Source of the DNA: Escherichia coli
GTDB taxonomy: Bacteria; Pseudomonadota; Gammaproteobacteria; Enterobacterales; Enterobacteriaceae
NCBI RefSeq assembly: GCF_022846255.1
Contig: NZ_AP025682.1
Reading direction: 5' to 3' (one strand)
DNA: 64,000 nucleotides
Shown here piece after piece: positions 1 through 17,366 of the stretch. Both the position numbers and the translations under genes were made by a program. How positions within the stretch are numbered: the first letter of the stretch is position 1; every line of letters begins with the position of its first letter. Below the pieces are notes generated by a model. That model saw only the letters and a list, made by a program, of their open reading frames with translations. It did not search any database and had not been told where the DNA came from.

Positions 1-592
1 TCTATACTTCCACAAAGCGCCGAACGCTAAAGAGTTGCATGAAGAGACGGTGCGTAAACTGCTGGCCCTGCATATGTATGACTGCGCGCGTGCCAACAAA
101 GCGATGTCAGCCTGGGGCGTGGAAGCACGCGTTCCGTTCCTCGACAAAAAATTCCTTGATGTGGCGATGCGTATTAACCCACAGGATAAAATGTGCGGTA
201 ACGGCAAAATGGAAAAACACATCCTGCGTGAATGTTTTGAAGCGTATCTGCCCGCAAGCGTGGCCTGGCGGCAGAAAGAGCAGTTCTCCGATGGCGTCGG
301 TTACAGTTGGATCGACACCCTGAAAGAAGTAGCAGCGCAGCAGGTTTCTGATCAACAGCTGGAAACTGCCCGCTTCCGCTTCCCGTACAACACGCCGACG
401 TCCAAAGAAGCGTATCTGTACCGGGAGATCTTTGAAGAACTGTTCCCGCTTCCGAGCGCCGCTGAGTGCGTGCCGGGCGGTCCTTCCGTCGCGTGTTCTT
501 CCGCTAAAGCGATCGAGTGGGATGAGGCGTTCAAGAAAATGGACGATCCGTCTGGTCGTGCGGTTGGTGTTCACCAGTCGGCGTATAAGTAA
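1..592 (+). CDS. asnB: asparagine synthetase B, C-terminal part (5' end upstream of window)
   Basis: Frame of ORF 35..592 is open to the window edge; translation (...VRKLLALHMYDCARANKAMSAWGVEARVPFLDKKF...) recognised as AsnB C-terminus; followed by hairpin plus T-run. Confidence 0.9.
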   Translation, partial: LYFHKAPNAKELHEETVRKLLALHMYDCARANKAMSAWGVEARVPFLDKKFLDVAMRINPQDKMCGNGKMEKHILRECFEAYLPASVAWRQKEQFSDGVGYSWIDTLKEVAAQQVSDQQLETARFRFPYNTPTSKEAYLYREIFEELFPLPSAAECVPGGPSVACSSAKAIEWDEAFKKMDDPSGRAVGVHQSAYK

Positions 593-602
593 GAAATGCG
601 AA

Positions 603-632
603 ACAGCCCCGGTAAAATCCGGGGCTGTTTTA
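603..632 (+). terminator. rho-independent terminator after asnB
   Basis: acagccccgg-taaaat-ccggggctgt followed by ttt, 11 nt after the asnB stop. Confidence 0.7.
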
Positions 633-903
633 GTTATTGAGCTGCTTGTTGATTCTGATATGCAGTAAGGAAATGTTCCGGGTTTGCCACATCGCTGTTT
701 GACAACTCATTACTGTAGGCCAGTATTTCATAGATTAATTTCCCACCACTATTGTTGAATTCCGAATTTCATCCTGTATGACAAAAGAATGGCTGTAGGG
801 TGGGGAGAAAACACAAAGTAAACAATAATTGACGAATATAGCGCCATGCTGTTCGCAACCTAACCAAACAGTCACTTTCGAGCAATTTTCCTTGAAAAAG
901 AGG

Positions 904-932
904 TTGACGCTGCAAGGCTCTATACGCATAAT
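904..932 (+). promoter_or_regulatory. candidate sigma70 promoter of the tRNA operon (TTGACG-17 nt-CATAAT) with GC-rich discriminator
   Basis: TTGACG at 904-909, 17-nt spacer, CATAAT at 927-932, then gcgcccc discriminator typical of stringently controlled stable-RNA promoters; about 40 nt upstream of metT. Confidence 0.5.
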
Positions 933-972
933 GCGCCCCGCAACGCCGATAAGGTATCGCGAAAAAAAAGAT

Positions 973-1049
973 GGCTACGTAGCTCAGTTGGTTAGAGCAC
1001 ATCACTCATAATGATGGGGTCACAGGTTCGAATCCCGTCGTAGCCACCA
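973..1049 (+). tRNA. metT: tRNA-Met (elongator, anticodon CAU)
   Basis: 77-nt sequence GGCTACGTAGCTCAGTTGGTTAGAGCACATCACTCATAATGATGGGGTCACAGGTTCGAATCCCGTCGTAGCCACCA read directly; cloverleaf and CCA end. Confidence 0.95.
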
Positions 1050-1059
1050 TCTTTTTTTT

Positions 1060-1144
1060 GCGGGAGTGGCGAAATTGGTAGACGCACCAGATTTAGGTTC
1101 TGGCGCCGCAAGGTGTGCGAGTTCAAGTCTCGCCTCCCGCACCA
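1060..1144 (+). tRNA. leuW: tRNA-Leu (anticodon UAG), long variable arm
   Basis: 85-nt sequence GCGGGAGTGGCGAAATTGGTAGACGCACCAGATTTAGGTTCTGG...CGCCTCCCGCACCA read directly. Confidence 0.95.
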
Positions 1145-1167
1145 TTCACCAGAAAGCGTTGTACGGA

Positions 1168-1242
1168 TGGGGTATCGCCAAGCGGTAAGGCACCGGTTTT
1201 TGATACCGGCATTCCCTGGTTCGAATCCAGGTACCCCAGCCA
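1168..1242 (+). tRNA. glnU: tRNA-Gln (anticodon UUG)
   Basis: 75-nt TGGGGTATCGCCAAGCGGTAAGGCACCGGTTTTTGATACCGGCATTCCCTGGTTCGAATCCAGGTACCCCAGCCA. Confidence 0.95.
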
Positions 1243-1276
1243 TATTCTTCGAGTAAGCGGTTCACCGCCCGGTTAT

Positions 1277-1351
1277 TGGGGTATCGCCAAGCGGTAAGGC
1301 ACCGGTTTTTGATACCGGCATTCCCTGGTTCGAATCCAGGTACCCCAGCCA
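1277..1351 (+). tRNA. glnW: tRNA-Gln (anticodon UUG), tandem duplicate
   Basis: Identical 75-nt copy of the glnU sequence. Confidence 0.95.
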
Positions 1352-1366
1352 TCGAAGAAACAATCT

Positions 1367-1443
1367 GGCTACGTAGCTCAGTTGGTTAGAGCACATCACT
1401 CATAATGATGGGGTCACAGGTTCGAATCCCGTCGTAGCCACCA
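1367..1443 (+). tRNA. metU: tRNA-Met (elongator, anticodon CAU), second copy
   Basis: Identical 77-nt copy of the metT sequence. Confidence 0.95.
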
Positions 1444-1491
1444 AATTCTGAATGTGTCGAATACGTTCGGCAAATTCAAAAACCAATTTGT

Positions 1492-1566
1492 TGGGGTATC
1501 GCCAAGCGGTAAGGCACCGGATTCTGATTCCGGCATTCCGAGGTTCGAATCCTCGTACCCCAGCCA
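1492..1566 (+). tRNA. glnV: tRNA-Gln (anticodon CUG)
   Basis: 75-nt TGGGGTATCGCCAAGCGGTAAGGCACCGGATTCTGATTCCGGCATTCCGAGGTTCGAATCCTCGTACCCCAGCCA. Confidence 0.95.
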
Positions 1567-1603
1567 ATTTATTCAAGACGCTTACCTTGTAAGTGCACCC
1601 AGT

Positions 1604-1678
1604 TGGGGTATCGCCAAGCGGTAAGGCACCGGATTCTGATTCCGGCATTCCGAGGTTCGAATCCTCGTACCCCAGCCA
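1604..1678 (+). tRNA. glnX: tRNA-Gln (anticodon CUG), tandem duplicate
   Basis: Identical 75-nt copy of the glnV sequence. Confidence 0.95.
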
Positions 1679-1687
1679 CATTTGAAA

Positions 1688-1715
1688 AGCTCGCTTCGGC
1701 GGGCTTTTTGCTTTT
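1688..1715 (+). terminator. rho-independent terminator of the tRNA operon
   Basis: agctcgc-ttcg-gcgggct stem (one U.G pair) with UUCG loop, followed by ttttgctttt. Confidence 0.65.
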
Positions 1716-1894
1716 CTGCGTATATTCAATGTCGAATGCGATGTTGATACAGCTAATTTGAATTTGGCCCACGGTTCAGGGCAAACCAGCCTGGAAGCAC
1801 ACTCAGGCGCGGTTTTCCCGCTCACCCTAACCCTCTCCCCAAGGGGCGAGGGGACCGTCCGCACGCTTTTGTAGCTTTGGTATCAACCGTTACG

Positions 1895-3070
1895 CTACAA
1901 CCCTAACGCATATTTCAGCGCCTGACGTTTCAACACGCCAGCACGCTCAGCCGCCATTAATCCGAGATTACGCATAAAACGCAGTGGTGGCAGATTATTG
2001 CTGAATCCGGCATAAAACAGATCCATACCACTTTGCATAATGAAGTTATCCGCCATGCGCCGCATCTGGTAACGCTTGAGGACAGGATAACTGGCCCACG
2101 CTTCGCCATAGCTGCGGGCGTTCACCAGAACATCAATCAGGGCATCGACATCACGATAACCAAGATTCACCCCCTGCCCCGCCAGCGGATGGATGGTATG
2201 CGCGGCATCGCCCACCAGTGCAAGCCCTGGTTGCACATACTGCAACGCATGGCGACGTGTCAGCGGAAACGCACCAGCGGCAAGCGGTGTCACGTAACCC
2301 AGACGCGACGGGAAATGCTTCGCGATTTCCGCCTGGAGCTGCGCCATATTCATATTCTGCAACTGGCGAATGCGCGCCGGAGAGTCATACCACACCAGCG
2401 ATGCCCAGTTATCAAACAACGGCAGAAACGCACGCGGTCCGTCCGGGGTAAATTGCTGCCAGGTGCTATCGCCGGGATCGTTCTCGCACTGTACGCTAAT
2501 CAACATACACGACTGTGCATACTGCCAGGCATGAACGCCAATTCCCGCCATCTGCCGCACCTGCGAATTTGCGCCGTCGGCACCAATCACCAGCTTCGCG
2601 CGGATCGTTTCACCGCCCTTCAGTTCCAGCTCCTGAAGATCATTATGGCGATGCAGCGCAATCAGCGAGCCTGGCACACGTAACGTTACTTTCGGATGCG
2701 CTTCCAGCGCCTGCCACAGCGCCTGTTGCAGGACAGTGTTTTCCACCATGTAGCCAAGCAACGGTAGCTTAAGTTCAGCGGCGTCAAACACCACATGCGC
2801 CGTTTCCCACTCCCACGTTTCCAGTCTGCGGTAAGGATGGCAACGCATAGCCTGTACTGCATCCCAGACCCCTAACCCTTTAAGCAATGATACCGAAGCC
2901 GCACTAATCGCCGAGATCCGCACGTCCGGCTGGCTGTCAGCGACAAACGGTGCAGGTTGGGCATGTTCGATAACCGTTACCGAAAATCCGTGCTGAGCCA
3001 GTCCCAGCGCCAGTGCGCCGCCGACCATTCCTCCGCCGACAATGGCAATTTCCGTTGGTTGATTTGTCAT
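1895..3070 (-). CDS. ubiF: 2-octaprenyl-3-methyl-6-methoxy-1,4-benzoquinol hydroxylase (FAD monooxygenase)
   Basis: ORF 1895..3076 translation MTMTNQPTEIAIVGGGMVGGALALG... (Rossmann GxGxxG); start placed at the second Met to match UbiF (MTNQPTEIAIVGGG...). Confidence 0.9.
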   Translation of the reverse strand: MTNQPTEIAIVGGGMVGGALALGLAQHGFSVTVIEHAQPAPFVADSQPDVRISAISAASVSLLKGLGVWDAVQAMRCHPYRRLETWEWETAHVVFDAAELKLPLLGYMVENTVLQQALWQALEAHPKVTLRVPGSLIALHRHNDLQELELKGGETIRAKLVIGADGANSQVRQMAGIGVHAWQYAQSCMLISVQCENDPGDSTWQQFTPDGPRAFLPLFDNWASLVWYDSPARIRQLQNMNMAQLQAEIAKHFPSRLGYVTPLAAGAFPLTRRHALQYVQPGLALVGDAAHTIHPLAGQGVNLGYRDVDALIDVLVNARSYGEAWASYPVLKRYQMRRMADNFIMQSGMDLFYAGFSNNLPPLRFMRNLGLMAAERAGVLKRQALKYALGL

Positions 3071-3215
3071 GGTCAATCATCCTGTTAGCAATATGCTTTA
3101 AGTTTACAGGATTTTTACCCCCAAGGGCTGATAACGCTCATACTGGTCACAACGGCAGCAAAGCATTACACTATGCGCCCTGCATTCCTGGCTACTATTT
3201 CGCAAGAGCAAGTCG

Positions 3216-4640
3216 ATGACCAAAAAACTCCATATTAAAACCTGGGGCTGTCAGATGAACGAGTACGATTCATCGAAGATGGCCGATCTGCTGGATGCCA
3301 CCCACGGCTATCAACTGACCGACGTGGCGGAAGAAGCGGATGTGCTGCTGCTGAACACCTGCTCAATCCGCGAGAAGGCTCAGGAAAAAGTCTTCCATCA
3401 GTTGGGTCGCTGGAAACTGTTAAAAGAGAAGAATCCAGACCTGATTATCGGCGTCGGCGGCTGCGTGGCATCGCAAGAAGGCGAGCACATTCGCCAGCGC
3501 GCCCACTATGTCGATATTATTTTTGGGCCGCAAACGCTGCACCGTCTGCCGGAGATGATCAACTCCGTGCGCGGCGACCGCAGCCCGGTTGTAGATATCA
3601 GCTTCCCGGAAATCGAGAAGTTTGACCGTCTGCCGGAACCGCGTGCCGAAGGGCCGACCGCGTTTGTCTCCATCATGGAAGGCTGCAATAAATATTGCAC
3701 CTACTGCGTGGTGCCTTACACCCGTGGTGAAGAGGTAAGCCGTCCGTCCGACGATATTCTGTTTGAAATTGCCCAGCTTGCGGCTCAGGGCGTGCGTGAA
3801 GTCAACCTGCTCGGTCAGAACGTGAACGCCTGGCGTGGTGAAAACTACGACGGCACCACCGGATCGTTTGCCGATCTGCTGCGTCTGGTTGCGGCGATCG
3901 ACGGGATCGATCGTATTCGCTTTACCACCAGCCATCCGATCGAATTCACCGACGATATCATCGAAGTGTATCGCGACACGCCGGAGCTGGTGAGTTTCCT
4001 GCATCTGCCGGTACAGAGCGGTTCCGATCGCATTCTGAACCTGATGGGACGTACCCATACAGCGCTGGAGTACAAAGCGATCATCCGTAAACTGCGTGCG
4101 GCGCGTCCGGATATTCAGATCAGTTCTGACTTCATCGTTGGCTTCCCTGGCGAAACCACCGAAGACTTCGAGAAAACGATGAAGCTGATTGCCGACGTCA
4201 ATTTCGACATGAGCTACAGCTTTATCTTCTCTGCACGTCCGGGTACGCCAGCCGCCGATATGGTTGATGATGTTCCGGAAGAAGAGAAGAAGCAGCGTCT
4301 GTATATTCTGCAAGAACGTATTAATCAGCAAGCGATGGCATGGAGCCGCCGGATGCTCGGCACCACCCAGCGTATTCTGGTAGAAGGTACATCGCGTAAG
4401 AGCATCATGGAGCTTTCCGGTCGCACTGAAAATAACCGCGTGGTCAACTTTGAAGGCACGCCAGATATGATCGGTAAATTCGTCGATGTAGAAATTACCG
4501 ACGTCTACCCGAACTCTCTGCGCGGTAAAGTGGTGCGTACTGAAGATGAAATGGGTCTGCGCGTGGCAGAAACGCCGGAATCGGTGATTGCCCGTACCCG
4601 CAAAGAAAACGACCTTGGCGTGGGTTATTATCAGCCGTAA
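3216..4640 (+). CDS. miaB: tRNA-i6A37 methylthiotransferase (radical SAM)
   Basis: 474-aa translation [26 protein letters not shown]... with CNKYCTYC radical-SAM cysteine motif. Confidence 0.95.
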
Positions 4641-4645
4641 TTCTC

Positions 4646-4678
4646 AGGCCCGCCGTTCCGGTGGGCCTTGTTTTTTCT
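4646..4678 (+). terminator. rho-independent terminator after miaB
   Basis: aggcccgcc-gttcc-ggtgggcct stem (9 bp, one G.U) followed by tgtttttt. Confidence 0.7.
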
Positions 4679-4792
4679 CTCTTTATCCCCATCTTTATCG
4701 CAATGCTTGCGCCTTTTTCCTGTGGCGTGAATAATTTCCTTATAGGCCGGTGAATGTTCAGCTTCCGGCGGCATACAGATAAGAGGAACGGT

Positions 4793-5833
4793 TTGAACAT
4801 AGACACTCGCGAAATCACCCTGGAGCCAGCAGACAATGCGCGTCTGTTGAGCCTGTGCGGCCCGTTTGATGACAACATCAAGCAGCTCGAACGCCGTCTC
4901 GGCATCGAGATCAATCGCCGCGATAACCACTTTAAACTGACCGGCCGTCCGATTTGCGTCACCGCTGCGGCAGACATTCTGCGTAGCCTGTATGTCGATA
5001 CTGCCCCGATGCGTGGTCAGATTCAGGATATCGAACCGGAACAGATCCACCTTGCGATTAAAGAAGCGCGGGTACTGGAGCAAAGCGCGGAGAGCGTGCC
5101 GGAGTACGGCAAAGCGGTCAATATCAAAACCAAACGCGGCGTAATCAAGCCGCGTACGCCAAACCAGGCGCAGTACATCGCCAATATTCTCGACCATGAC
5201 ATCACCTTCGGCGTTGGCCCGGCGGGTACGGGTAAAACCTACCTGGCAGTGGCTGCGGCAGTTGATGCCCTGGAGCGTCAGGAAATTCGCCGTATTCTGC
5301 TGACTCGTCCGGCGGTAGAAGCCGGTGAGAAACTGGGCTTCCTGCCTGGCGATTTAAGCCAGAAAGTAGACCCGTATTTGCGCCCACTGTACGACGCGCT
5401 GTTTGAAATGCTGGGCTTTGAGAAAGTCGAGAAACTGATTGAGCGCAACGTTATTGAAGTCGCGCCGCTGGCCTATATGCGTGGTCGTACGCTGAACGAC
5501 GCGTTTATCATTCTTGATGAGAGCCAGAACACCACCATCGAACAGATGAAGATGTTCCTGACCCGTATCGGTTTTAACTCAAAAGCGGTTATCACCGGCG
5601 ACGTCACACAGATCGACCTGCCGCGTAATACCAAGTCAGGCTTGCGTCACGCCATCGAAGTGCTGGCCGATGTTGAAGAGATCAGCTTTAACTTCTTCCA
5701 CAGCGAAGACGTGGTTCGTCACCCGGTGGTGGCGCGTATCGTTAACGCTTATGAAGCCTGGGAAGAAGCCGAACAAAAACGTAAAGCGGCGCTGGCAGCA
5801 GAACGCAAGCGCGAAGAACAGGAACAAAAATGA
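4793..5833 (+). CDS. ybeZ: PhoH-like ATPase
   Basis: ORF 4754..5833; Walker A GPAGTGKT; probable native start is the TTG at 4793 ([19 protein letters not shown]...) preceded by aagaggaa SD; ATG at 4754 is the alternative. Confidence 0.9.
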
Positions 5834-6297
5834 GTCAGGTGATCCTCGATTTACAACTGGCATGTGAAGATAATTCCGGGTTACCGGAAGAGAGCCAGTT
5901 TCAAACATGGCTGAATGCGGTGATCCCGCAGTTTCAGGAAGAGTCGGAAGTGACTATTCGCGTGGTCGATACCGCCGAAAGCCACAGTCTGAATCTGACC
6001 TATCGCGGTAAGGATAAGCCGACCAACGTGCTCTCCTTCCCGTTTGAAGTGCCGCCTGGCATGGAAATGTCGCTACTGGGCGATCTGGTTATCTGCCGTC
6101 AGGTGGTTGAGAAGGAAGCTCAGGAGCAAGGCAAACCACTGGAGGCGCACTGGGCGCATATGGTGGTGCACGGCAGTCTGCATTTGTTAGGTTACGATCA
6201 CATCGAAGATGACGAAGCAGAAGAAATGGAAGCCCTCGAAACAGAGATTATGCTTGCTCTGGGCTATGAGGATCCGTACATTGCCGAGAAAGAATAA
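5830..6297 (+). CDS. ybeY: endoribonuclease YbeY (16S rRNA 3'-end maturation)
   Basis: 155-aa translation with [11 protein letters not shown] metal-binding motif; ATGA overlap with ybeZ stop. Confidence 0.95.
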
Positions 6298-6327
6298 TTT
6301 GCCAGGCATTTGACTGGCAGACGTCCC

Positions 6328-6356
6328 CGCCGTTGGTGATTAACGACGGCGTTTTG
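6328..6356 (+). terminator. intra-operon hairpin plus T-run between ybeY and corC (possible attenuator)
   Basis: cgccgttg-gtgattaa-cgacggcg (8-bp stem, one U.G) followed by ttttgatt. Confidence 0.45.
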
Positions 6357-6386
6357 ATTAACTAACATGAGAACCCATACGACGCC

Positions 6387-7265
6387 ATGAGCGACGACAA
6401 TTCACACAGTAGTGACACGATAAGCAACAAGAAGGGATTTTTCTCCCTGTTACTCAGCCAACTTTTCCACGGTGAACCGAAAAACCGTGACGAACTGCTG
6501 GCGCTGATCCGTGATTCCGGGCAGAACGACCTTATCGACGAAGATACGCGCGATATGCTCGAAGGGGTGATGGACATCGCAGACCAACGCGTCCGCGACA
6601 TCATGATCCCCCGCTCCCAGATGATTACCCTGAAACGCAACCAGACACTGGACGAATGCCTTGATGTCATCATCGAGTCCGCCCACTCACGTTTCCCGGT
6701 GATTAGCGAAGACAAAGATCACATTGAAGGGATTCTGATGGCGAAAGACTTGCTGCCGTTTATGCGCAGCGATGCTGAAGCCTTCAGCATGGACAAAGTG
6801 TTACGTCAGGCGGTTGTCGTTCCTGAAAGTAAGCGCGTAGACCGGATGCTGAAAGAGTTTCGCTCTCAGCGTTACCACATGGCGATCGTCATTGACGAAT
6901 TCGGTGGGGTTTCCGGTCTGGTGACCATTGAAGACATCCTGGAACTGATTGTTGGTGAGATTGAAGACGAGTATGACGAAGAAGATGATATCGACTTCCG
7001 TCAGTTGAGTCGTCATACCTGGACCGTGCGCGCACTGGCTTCCATTGAAGACTTCAACGAAGCGTTCGGTACCCACTTTAGCGATGAAGAGGTTGACACT
7101 ATCGGTGGTCTGGTGATGCAGGCATTTGGGCATCTTCCGGCGCGTGGCGAAACCATCGACATCGACGGTTACCAGTTCAAAGTGGCGATGGCCGACAGTC
7201 GGCGTATTATTCAGGTTCATGTCAAAATCCCGGATGACTCACCCCAGCCGAAGCTGGATGAATAA
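6387..7265 (+). CDS. corC: Mg2+/Co2+ efflux protein (CBS-pair plus CorC_HlyC domain)
   Basis: 292-aa translation [38 protein letters not shown]... recognised as CorC/YbeX. Confidence 0.95.
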
Positions 7266-7289
7266 AACCGAAACTGGATAGATAACTAC

Positions 7290-8831
7290 ATGGCTTTTGC
7301 CTCATTAATTGAACGCCAGCGCATTCGCCTGCTGCTGGCGTTATTATTCGGTGCCTGCGGAACGCTGGCCTTCTCTCCTTACGATGTCTGGCCTGCGGCG
7401 ATTATTTCGCTGATGGGGCTTCAGGCGCTGACCTTTAACCGCCGTCCACTCCAGTCTGCCGCTATTGGCTTTTGCTGGGGATTTGGTCTCTTTGGCAGCG
7501 GTATTAACTGGGTCTATGTCAGCATCGCGACCTTTGGCGGAATGCCTGGCCCGGTTAACATCTTCCTGGTGGTACTGCTGGCGGCGTATTTGTCGCTGTA
7601 TACCGGACTGTTTGCTGGCGTGCTGTCGCGTCTGTGGCCGAAAACCACCTGGCTGCGCGTGGCGATTGCCGCTCCTGCTCTCTGGCAAGTGACCGAGTTT
7701 CTGCGCGGTTGGGTGCTGACTGGCTTCCCGTGGTTACAGTTCGGCTATAGCCAGATTGATGGCCCGTTAAAAGGGCTGGCACCGCTAATGGGCGTGGAAG
7801 CCATTAACTTCCTGCTTATGATGGTTAGCGGCCTGCTGGCACTGGCGTTAGTCAAACGCAACTGGCGTCCGCTGGTGGTGGCCGTCGTGCTGTTTGCCCT
7901 ACCCTTCCCGCTGCGTTACATCCAGTGGTTTACCCCGCAACCGGAGAAAACCATTCAGGTTTCGATGGTTCAGGGCGATATTCCGCAATCGCTGAAATGG
8001 GACGAAGGCCAGCTTCTTAATACGCTGAAGATTTACTACAACGCAACGGCACCGCTGATGGGCAAATCATCGTTGATTATCTGGCCGGAGTCGGCGATAA
8101 CCGATCTGGAAATTAATCAGCAACCGTTCCTCAAAGCTCTGGACGGTGAGTTGCGCGATAAAGGTAGCTCGCTGGTCACCGGGATTGTCGACGCGCGTCT
8201 CAATAAGCAGAACCGCTACGATACCTACAACACCATCATCACACTGGGTAAAGGTGCACCGTACAGCTACGAATCAGCCGATCGCTATAACAAAAACCAT
8301 CTGGTGCCGTTTGGCGAGTTTGTCCCGCTCGAGTCGATTCTGCGTCCGTTAGCACCGTTCTTTGATCTGCCGATGTCGTCGTTCAGCCGTGGGCCATATA
8401 TCCAGCCGCCGCTGTCGGTAAATGGTATTGAGCTTACTGCGGCTATTTGCTACGAGATCATTCTCGGCGAGCAAGTGCGCGATAACTTCCGCCCGGATAC
8501 CGACTATCTGCTGACTATCTCCAACGATGCGTGGTTTGGTAAGTCTATTGGTCCATGGCAGCACTTCCAGATGGCGCGAATGCGTGCGTTGGAGCTGGCG
8601 CGCCCATTGCTGCGTAGCACCAACAACGGTATTACGGCGGTGATTGGCCCGCAGGGTGAGATTCAGGCAATGATCCCGCAGTTCACCCGCGAAGTGTTGA
8701 CCACTAACGTGACGCCGACCACCGGACTCACACCGTACGCACGTACCGGCAACTGGCCGCTGTGGGTACTGACGGCATTGTTTGGTTTTGCCGCCGTGTT
8801 GATGAGTCTGCGTCAACGACGTAAACGTTGA
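7290..8831 (+). CDS. lnt: apolipoprotein N-acyltransferase
   Basis: 513-aa translation, N-terminal multi-TM region plus C-terminal CN-hydrolase domain; recognised as Lnt. Confidence 0.95.
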
Positions 8832-17326: not shown

Positions 17327-17366
17327 CTGCCGGATGCGGCATAAACGCTGCATCCGGCATCGGCGC
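17327..17366. repeat. REP-like palindromic element between convergent hscC and djlC
   Basis: gctgccggatgcggcataaacgctgcatccggcatcggcgc contains the GCCGGATGCGGC REP core as an inverted pair. Confidence 0.5.

What the first reader, a model, noticed from the sequence alone, without database searches (positions are those of the whole stretch)
1790..1875. GC-rich imperfect palindrome between the tRNA operon and ubiF
The sequence cgctcaccctaaccctctccccaaggggcgaggggaccgtccg contains an imperfect hairpin (cctctcccc / ggggcgagg) with no adjoining T-run on either strand. It sits just past the ubiF stop and looks like a member of a dispersed intergenic repeat family, but not the REP sequence seen at 17327.
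Basis: seen in the sequence. Interest (0 to 1): 0.2.

Follow-up and report, generated by a model that had tools for sequence, protein, structure and literature searches.

The report
Known BoxC triplex-motif repeat near ubiF
The GC-rich hairpin just past the ubiF stop codon is one slightly decayed copy of BoxC (also called PIT or TMECO), a dispersed intergenic repeat of E. coli described since 1992, so it is real but ordinary.

Summary
Window 1831-1852 forms a 10-position hairpin with 9 pairs and one T/C mismatch, and no T-run adjoins it. The hairpin is two-thirds of a three-block motif. On the minus strand, 1852-1819 reads CCCTCGCCCCTTGGGGAGAGGGTTAGGGTGAGCG. This fits the published TMECO/BoxC/PIT consensus (CCCTCNCCC N3-6 GGGNGAGGG N3 GGGNGAGGG) with one substitution, and the family's conserved flanks span about 1803-1888.

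A 201-base query centred on it finds a median of 15 places per genome in 5,425 of 5,426 complete E. coli genomes. The orthologous copy in strain SMS-3-5 is already catalogued as TMECO no. 156 (Holder et al. 2015, Table S8).

The copy at this locus is rare and derived. Only 37 of 5,426 genomes carry it. 5,353 genomes, a 94%-UbiF Escherichia-like contig and three more distant relatives (Citrobacter koseri and two unnamed) hold a REP-type palindrome in the same slot instead. The spacer was replaced whole (143 bp for 80 bp), with no target duplication or terminal repeats.

The window's copy has a G-to-C change in block 3, and its fold is no more stable than shuffled sequence. No function is known for the family; published tests found no promoter or terminator activity. 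Verdict: already known, low interest.

The parts
1819..1855 (-). BoxC / PIT / TMECO core, type A (TTA second loop) with the usual G/A mismatch. Block 1 is CCCTCGCCC(C), loop TT, block 2 (G)GGGAGAGGG, loop TTA, block 3 GGGTGAGcGGG. Block 3 carries a C where the consensus has G.
   Evidence: Regex match to the published consensus with 1 substitution. Compared with the 23 K-12 sequences in Table 1 of PMC4666352. Aligned with K-12 copies.
1831..1852 (+).
   Evidence: Direct reading. The same helix appears in the DNA fold of the plus strand.
1803..1888 (-). Approximate full repeat unit: the core plus family-conserved flanks. On the minus strand these read ...TGATACCAAAGCTACAAAAGCGTGCGGACGGT[core]GGGAAAACCGCGCCTGAGTGTGC...
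   Evidence: BLAST matches at other loci cover up to query positions 95-192, which is window 1794-1891. Multiple alignments with the flgF-flgG, gabT-gabP, fimH-gntP, frlR-yhfS, yihR-yihS and pstA-pstB copies.
1748..1893 (.). Lineage-specific spacer of about 143-146 bp that carries the BoxC unit. It replaces the spacer of about 80 bp containing a REP that is found in K-12 and most E. coli.
   Evidence: Alignments A1 and A2: homology with K-12 and strain 536 stops after GATGTTGA (1747) and resumes at GCTACAA (1894). Allele counts.
1683..1710 (+). Intrinsic terminator of the metT-glnX tRNA operon. It is context, not part of the repeat. Read on the minus strand it is also the nearest hairpin plus T-run downstream of ubiF, so BoxC would lie in the ubiF 3' untranslated region (inferred).
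   Evidence: Terminator scan, tRNA calls, direct reading of the sequence.

Best explanation
This is one copy of the BoxC repeat, also published as PIT (potential intrastrand triplex) and TMECO. It is a non-coding, non-autonomous dispersed intergenic repeat of E. coli and its relatives. Its core is one C-rich block followed by two near-identical G-rich blocks. Block 1 can therefore pair with either block 2 or block 3. In single-stranded DNA the three blocks can stack into a purine-motif intrastrand triplex; that was shown in vitro by others for consensus copies, not for this one. At this locus the element most likely has no dedicated cellular function. It entered one E. coli lineage once, in an event that replaced the ancestral REP-containing spacer between ubiF and the tRNA operon. 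It has been inherited vertically since then and is now decaying: in the window, block 3 has a G-to-C change. It sits between two convergent 3' ends, where a passenger repeat does least harm, and is probably transcribed as part of the ubiF 3' UTR. Shown here: family membership, copy numbers, the allele distribution, REP-type palindromes in the same slot in the four relatives sampled, and the clustering of changes in the core. Inferred: a single replacement event, neutrality, and transcription into the 3' UTR.
For: The core fits the consensus with 1 substitution, against a chance expectation of 1.4e-7. The flanks align with ten K-12 copies listed by Holder et al., including the original fabI (envM) BoxC locus. 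The family gives a median of 15 places per genome in 5,425 of 5,426 genomes. The orthologous SMS-3-5 copy is published as TMECO no. 156 at NC_010498 695776-695809. The BoxC allele is in 37 of 5,426 genomes, including SMS-3-5, IAI39 and CE10. The REP allele is in 5,353. It is also in a contig whose UbiF is 94% identical, while Citrobacter koseri and two further relatives with 90-91% UbiF carry other REP-type palindromes. There are no junction direct repeats or terminal inverted repeats. The window and SMS-3-5 alleles differ at 4 positions inside the 34-nt core and 3 in the terminator hairpin, and nowhere else in about 220 bp. The window copy's fold is not better than shuffles (z -0.8), while the consensus and SMS-3-5 copies give z -1.9 and -2.5. 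Seven of the 11 single type-A copies examined lie between convergent genes and none between divergent genes (binomial p 0.008 at an assumed 25%, post hoc). Published work found no promoter or terminator activity and no in vivo triplex footprint, but more sequence variability around these elements than around control intergenic sites (PMC4666352).
Against: Neutrality is an argument from absence, because no experiment addresses this copy. The strong conservation of the core across 23 K-12 copies, and the presence of the same three-block motif in Myxococcota, Betaproteobacteria and other MAGs, could reflect selection for the structure rather than recent copying. The mechanism that spreads the family is unknown. 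The source of the non-BoxC part of the new spacer (1748-1802) was not found. The relatives are metagenome or draft contigs identified mainly by UbiF identity.
Confidence: 0.72

Rival explanations
1. The element is a functional 3'-end RNA element for ubiF. The G/C-rich hairpin in the ubiF 3' UTR would block 3'-to-5' exonucleases and stabilise the mRNA. That is the role classically assigned to REP sequences, which occupy the same slot in other strains.
For: The element lies 42 nt after the ubiF stop codon, upstream of the only hairpin plus T-run in the spacer. The same slot holds a REP-type palindrome in K-12, strain 536, a 94%-UbiF contig, Citrobacter koseri and two further relatives. Seven of 11 examined copies sit at convergent 3' ends. 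The minus-strand RNA fold includes a long helix at -35 kcal/mol.
Against: The fold is no more stable than shuffled sequence (z -0.8). Family copies show no consistent orientation relative to flanking transcripts: the pstA-pstB and yihS-yihR mRNAs carry the C-rich strand and the flgF-flgG mRNA the G-rich strand (PMC4666352 section 18). Flanking-stem complementarity is not copy-specific (p 0.57). Hoyne and Maher 2002, as summarised in PMC4666352, found no effect on transcription.
Confidence: 0.12
2. The element is a structure-forming DNA element. It would transiently fold into an intrastrand triplex or hairpin on single-stranded DNA during replication or transcription, stall polymerases, and so act as a local hotspot of recombination and mutation. 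This is the 'source of genomic instability' proposal of Holder et al.
For: Consensus TMECO oligonucleotides form triplexes in vitro with melting temperatures of 70-82 C and stop primer extension (PMC4666352). TMECO loci are more variable among 56 strains than control sites. At this locus the whole spacer was exchanged, and the two BoxC alleles differ only inside the core and the nearby terminator hairpin.
Against: In vivo DMS footprinting gave no sign of a triplex. Variability around a repeat is also what insertion, loss and gene conversion of any repeat would produce. The window copy has a C in block 3 that removes one G*G:C triad and weakens block 1:block 3 pairing, so it should be a poorer former of the structure than the consensus.
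Confidence: 0.13
3. [quoted passage not shown]
For: It is a short, multi-copy, dispersed, roughly palindromic unit that is present or absent between strains.
Against: There is no target-site duplication at the junctions and no terminal inverted repeats bounding the new segment. The locus shows replacement of 80 bp by 143 bp rather than a clean insertion. The family is essentially absent from phages, with 3 of 50,697 records. Of 102 plasmid records with a match, 86 are non-mobilizable, and many E. coli hits are megabase-size records. No partner transposase is known.
Confidence: 0.03

Closest known systems
BoxC (Bergler et al. 1992; Bachellier et al. 1999), also published as PIT elements (Hoyne et al. 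2000, 2002) and as TMECO type A with mismatch (Holder et al. 2015, PMC4666352)
   Same: It has the three-block core, the TTA second loop, the G/A mismatch in the hairpin, and the conserved flanks ACGGTCCCC... and ...GGGGAAAA. It is intergenic. The orthologous copy in SMS-3-5 is listed as TMECO no. 156.
   Different: Loop 1 is one base shorter (TT rather than TTT or TCT). Block 3 reads GGGTGAGCGGG instead of GGGTGAGGGG, so the strict published consensus is missed by one base. Predicted block 1:block 3 pairing is weaker. The locus is occupied in only 37 of 5,426 complete genomes.
REP / BIME (repetitive extragenic palindromes)
   Same: It is a short GC-rich imperfect palindrome, dispersed, found at 3' ends and between convergent genes. 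It occupies exactly the slot that a REP holds in K-12 and most E. coli.
   Different: There is no sequence similarity to REP. It has three blocks rather than two arms. It is present in tens rather than hundreds of copies. No TnpA(REP)/RAYT partner and no binding by gyrase, IHF or Pol I is known for it (the last two points from general knowledge).
H-DNA / intramolecular triplex-forming mirror repeats
   Same: Purine and pyrimidine tracts are arranged so that a third strand can fold back on a hairpin duplex.
   Different: Here the triplex is proposed for a single strand (three blocks on one strand), not for supercoiled duplex mirror repeats. It is unproven in vivo.

Membership tests
BoxC / PIT / TMECO | Core consensus CCCTCNCCC N3-6 GGGNGAGGG N3 GGGNGAGGG | tested here: met
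   Minus strand 1852-1819 matches with one substitution, block 3 GGGTGAGcG. The strict zero-mismatch pattern is not met. The SMS-3-5 orthologue matches it exactly.
BoxC / PIT / TMECO | Conserved sequence outside the 37-nt core (the roughly 56-bp BoxC unit) | tested here: met
   CGGACGGTCCCC upstream and GGGGAAAAC downstream are shared with ten K-12 copies. Longer flanks are shared with the flgF-flgG, gabT-gabP and fimH-gntP copies.
BoxC / PIT / TMECO | Many dispersed copies per genome | tested here: met
   A median of 15 and up to 25 places per genome in 5,425 of 5,426 E. coli genomes. 23 copies are published for MG1655. Only one copy lies in this 64-kb window, and the rest of the source genome could not be read.
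BoxC / PIT / TMECO | Strictly intergenic location | tested here: met
   It lies between glnX (ends 1678) and the ubiF stop codon (1895).
BoxC / PIT / TMECO | Forms an intrastrand purine-motif triplex in vitro | not testable with these tools
   Shown by CD and NMR for consensus oligonucleotides only (PMC4666352). The block 3 G-to-C change is predicted to remove one triad. Hairpin folding alone gives z -0.8.
REP / BIME | REP consensus arms (GCCGGATG...CTTATCCGGCCTAC type) | tested here: not met
   No match in the window to a degenerate REP pattern recalled from memory, at up to 3 mismatches. That pattern also failed to match the REP-like hairpin at 17327-17360, so the scan is a weak test. By eye the element does not resemble that hairpin, and the K-12 allele at this locus does contain GATGCGACGC...CGTCTTATCCGACCTAC.
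ERIC / IRU | Conserved central inverted repeat (ERIC2 primer region) | tested here: not met
   No match to AAGTAAGTGACTGGGGTGAGCG at up to 3 mismatches. The primer sequence was recalled from memory.
MITE | Terminal inverted repeats plus target-site duplication, with an empty site in relatives | tested here: not met
   No junction direct repeat. The only inverted pairs near the ends are 8 and 15 nt and are expected by chance. Relatives show a replaced spacer, not an empty site.
Intrinsic (rho-independent) terminator | GC-rich stem-loop immediately followed by a T-run | tested here: not met
   The scan finds only the tRNA-operon terminator at 1683-1710. The nearest T-run to the hairpin is TTTT, 14 nt away.
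Any Rfam RNA family | Covariance-model match | tested here: not met
   No hit better than E = 5 overlaps 1790-1875, even at E up to 10.

The most novel reading that the evidence does not exclude
BoxC and REP may be functionally interchangeable occupants of a '3'-end slot' between convergent transcription units. On this reading the whole-spacer swap seen here (REP in 5,353 genomes and in the four relatives sampled, BoxC in 37) would be a selected replacement of one RNA/DNA structural module by another. Changes would then cluster in the core because of ongoing gene conversion among BoxC copies. It would give BoxC its first assigned role, as a 3' UTR stabiliser or a buffer where transcription and replication collide.
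Probability: 0.07. Interest if true: 0.5.

Novelty: already known. Interest (0 to 1): 0.12.

Why it matters
It matters little for discovery. The family has been in the literature since 1992, and the copy at this locus is already tabulated for strain SMS-3-5. The practical value is for annotation: the hairpin should be labelled BoxC/PIT/TMECO, not terminator, REP or small RNA. The locus is also a clean natural example of one repeat family replacing another in the same intergenic slot. Such a pair of alleles could be used to test whether BoxC does anything for a neighbouring gene, which remains an open question for this family.

Tried and rejected
An exceptionally stable structure was rejected.
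- **Rfam scan** at E up to 10 found nothing at the site.
- **Other copies in the window:** none.
- **Cross-species scan:** It gave no enterobacterial copies for covariation work. It confirmed only that the motif is widespread.
- **Copy-specific outer stem** was tested by comparing cognate with non-cognate flank pairing. The means were -10.2 and -10.3 kcal/mol, permutation p 0.57. Rejected.
- **MITE reading:** no target duplication, terminal repeats or empty site. Rejected.
- **Terminator reading:** rejected.
- **Plasmid and phage carriage:** essentially none. Many E. coli 'plasmid' hits are megabase-size records.
- **Literature after 2015** on a BoxC function: nothing relevant found. Other 'boxC' hits concern the unrelated rRNA/lambda nut boxC.
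- **NC_000913 annotation** lists no repeat feature at the K-12 loci examined.

Full report
**Setting.** The window begins with the end of asnB. It continues with the seven-gene tRNA operon metT-leuW-glnU-glnW-metU-glnV-glnX (973-1678, plus strand) and its terminator (1683-1710). ubiF follows on the minus strand (stop codon 1895-1897, ORF 1895-3076), then miaB. This is the E. coli K-12 arrangement at 693.5-698.5 kb. The finding lies in the 216-bp spacer between two convergent 3' ends.

**Observation.** The quoted sequence is there. Arms 1831-1840 (CCCTCTCCCC) and 1843-1852 (GGGGCGAGGG) pair at 9 of 10 positions around an AA loop. No T-run adjoins the hairpin; the nearest is TTTT at 1867-1870.
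- As a structure it is unremarkable. RNA folds of 1790-1875 give z -0.54 on the plus strand and -0.82 on the minus strand against dinucleotide shuffles.
- DNA folds of the core give z -0.77 and 0.04.
- Rfam finds nothing there.

**What it is.** Read on the minus strand, 1852-1819 is CCCTCGCCCC-TT-GGGGAGAGGG-TTA-GGGTGAGCG.
- This is the three-block motif that Holder et al. 2015 (PMC4666352) call TMECO. It was earlier published as BoxC (Bergler 1992; Bachellier 1999) and as PIT elements (Hoyne and Maher 2000, 2002).
- The published consensus is CCCTCNCCC N3-6 GGGNGAGGG N3 GGGNGAGGG. The window copy fits it with one substitution in block 3.
- Under an independent-base model such a fit is expected 1.4e-7 times in 64 kb, and 30 shuffles gave none even with 3 substitutions allowed.
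- It is 'type A mm' in that paper's terms: TTA second loop and a G/A mismatch in the hairpin. That is the commonest type, 13 of the 23 MG1655 copies.

**Flanks.** I fetched ten of the published K-12 loci, including the original fabI (envM) BoxC site. Conservation extends beyond the core.
- CGGACGGT precedes the core and GGGGAAAAC follows it.
- In the flgF-flgG, gabT-gabP and fimH-gntP copies the similarity runs roughly over window 1803-1888.

**Copy number.** A 201-base query around the element finds matches in 5,425 of 5,426 complete E. coli genomes. The median is 15 places per genome and the maximum 25, almost all on chromosomes. This agrees with the 23 copies at 18 sites published for MG1655. 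The window itself holds only this one copy.

**This locus.** The copy here is rare.
- Only 37 of 5,426 genomes match at least 80% of the 201 bases, among them SMS-3-5, IAI39 and CE10.
- 5,353 genomes carry the K-12 form of the spacer.
- Alignment shows that K-12 and strain 536 have a REP-type palindrome (…GGATGCGACGCTGCCGCGTCTTATCCGACCTAC…) in an 80-bp segment. The window has a 143-bp segment containing BoxC instead.
- Homology stops after GATGTTGA (1747) and resumes at GCTACAA (1894), next to the ubiF stop codon.
- There is no target-site duplication and there are no bounding inverted repeats. This is a replacement, not a clean insertion.

**Polarity of the change.** I fetched DNA downstream of ubiF homologues to decide which form is older.
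- A contig whose UbiF is 94% identical, presumably another Escherichia species, has the K-12-type REP spacer.
- Citrobacter koseri has a different REP-type palindrome, as do two further unnamed relatives (UbiF 90-91% identical).
- None has BoxC. The BoxC allele is therefore derived and lineage-restricted.
- The SMS-3-5 orthologue is already listed as TMECO no. 156 (NC_010498 695776-695809) in Supplementary Table S8 of Holder et al. That table gives only 6-7 copies for SMS-3-5, IAI39 and CE10.

**The window's variant.** The window's exact allele is found in two NCBI draft assemblies that also encode the identical UbiF.
- It differs from the SMS-3-5 allele at four positions, all inside the 34-nt core: TT-GGGGAGAGGG against TC-GGGTGAGGG, and C against G in block 3.
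- It also differs at three positions in the tRNA terminator hairpin, and nowhere else in about 220 bp.
- The block 3 change weakens the alternative block 1:block 3 pairing. The consensus and SMS-3-5 cores fold with z -1.9 and -2.5, the window core with z -0.8.
- I read this as decay, or as conversion between copies. The tools here cannot tell these apart.

**Mechanism.** Published experiments, as summarised in PMC4666352, report the following.
- Consensus oligonucleotides form a triplex in vitro (melting temperature 70-82 C) and stop polymerases.
- There is no in vivo triplex footprint, and no promoter or terminator activity.
- Copies show no orientation or gene-class bias.
- Sequence variability around TMECO sites is higher than around control sites.

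My own small additions are these.
- Of the 11 single type-A copies examined, 7 lie between convergent genes and none between divergent genes (post hoc, p about 0.008 at an assumed 25%). REPs show a similar placement (general knowledge). It fits insertion being tolerated where it is harmless.
- Flank complementarity is a property of the family consensus, not of individual copies (p 0.57). There is thus no covariation support for a selected outer stem.
- The family is nearly absent from phages and from genuinely mobile plasmids.

I therefore favour a passenger repeat acquired once by spacer replacement (confidence about 0.7). A role as a 3'-UTR module and a role as an instability hotspot remain minority alternatives.

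**Wider distribution.** One Archangium MAG alone supplied 73 of the 120 stretches. This agrees with the published claim of a wide distribution. It adds nothing about this locus.

**Verdict.** Interest is low.

Noticed in passing
window 1748-1802: The non-BoxC part of the lineage-specific spacer (TACAGCTAATTTGAATTTGGCCCACGGTTCAGGGCAAACCAGCCTGGAAGC) matches nothing else in 5,426 E. coli genomes. All matches outside this locus begin at query position 95 or later. Its origin is unknown.
   Followed up: partly
window 1683-1710: The tRNA-operon terminator differs from the K-12, SMS-3-5 and strain 536 form. GCGGGC replaces GCGAGC, giving a G-U pair on the plus-strand RNA and a C/A mismatch on the minus strand. 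TTTGAAAAGC replaces TTAAAAAAGC, which shortens the minus-strand T-run to TTTT. The hairpin should therefore be a weaker terminator for ubiF than in K-12.
   Followed up: partly
window 1-8000: The first 8 kb are at most 98.8% identical to any of 5,426 complete E. coli genomes. The source is therefore a lineage not closely represented among complete genomes. Identical UbiF and an identical spacer occur in GCA_014771515.1 and GCA_032208525.1.
   Followed up: partly
window 1824-1831 and 1900-1907: There is an 8-nt direct repeat, ACCCTAAC, inside the BoxC core and again in the last codons of ubiF. About 0.4 such pairs are expected by chance. It could be microhomology involved in the spacer replacement.
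   Followed up: no
It is REP-like, but it did not match my degenerate REP pattern, recalled from memory, within 3 mismatches.
   Followed up: partly
L026-L098 (Archangium sp. MAG-75), L099-L124 (unclassified MAG GL140_5_metabat_74): The same three-block motif is present in dozens of copies in a myxobacterial MAG, with non-conserved flanks. It also occurs in two subfamilies with about 25 nt of conserved flank on each side in an unclassified MAG.
   Followed up: partly
phage records MG065686.1 (141084-141144) and MG065691.1 (32979-33039): Two 174-kb 'Campylobacter phage' records each hold two places matching the E. coli BoxC unit, the best at 90% over 61 nt. This is odd for that host and may reflect contamination or chimeric assembly.
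   Followed up: no
L146 and L147, about 2210-2330 (contigs with 91%-identical UbiF): Between the two tRNA-Gln genes downstream of ubiF there are two tandem copies of a degenerate tRNA-like fragment (…GGTATGTCGGTTATCTCGTGCCGG.CTCAGCCCGG.GCCTTACAGCCTGGAGATACCC…).
   Followed up: no
L139, L140, L142 (flgF-flgG spacer of O157:H7, O91 and MS6198): The whole 137-bp flgF-flgG intergenic spacer is essentially one long BoxC unit. It decays in some strains: MS6198 has several core substitutions.
   Followed up: partly
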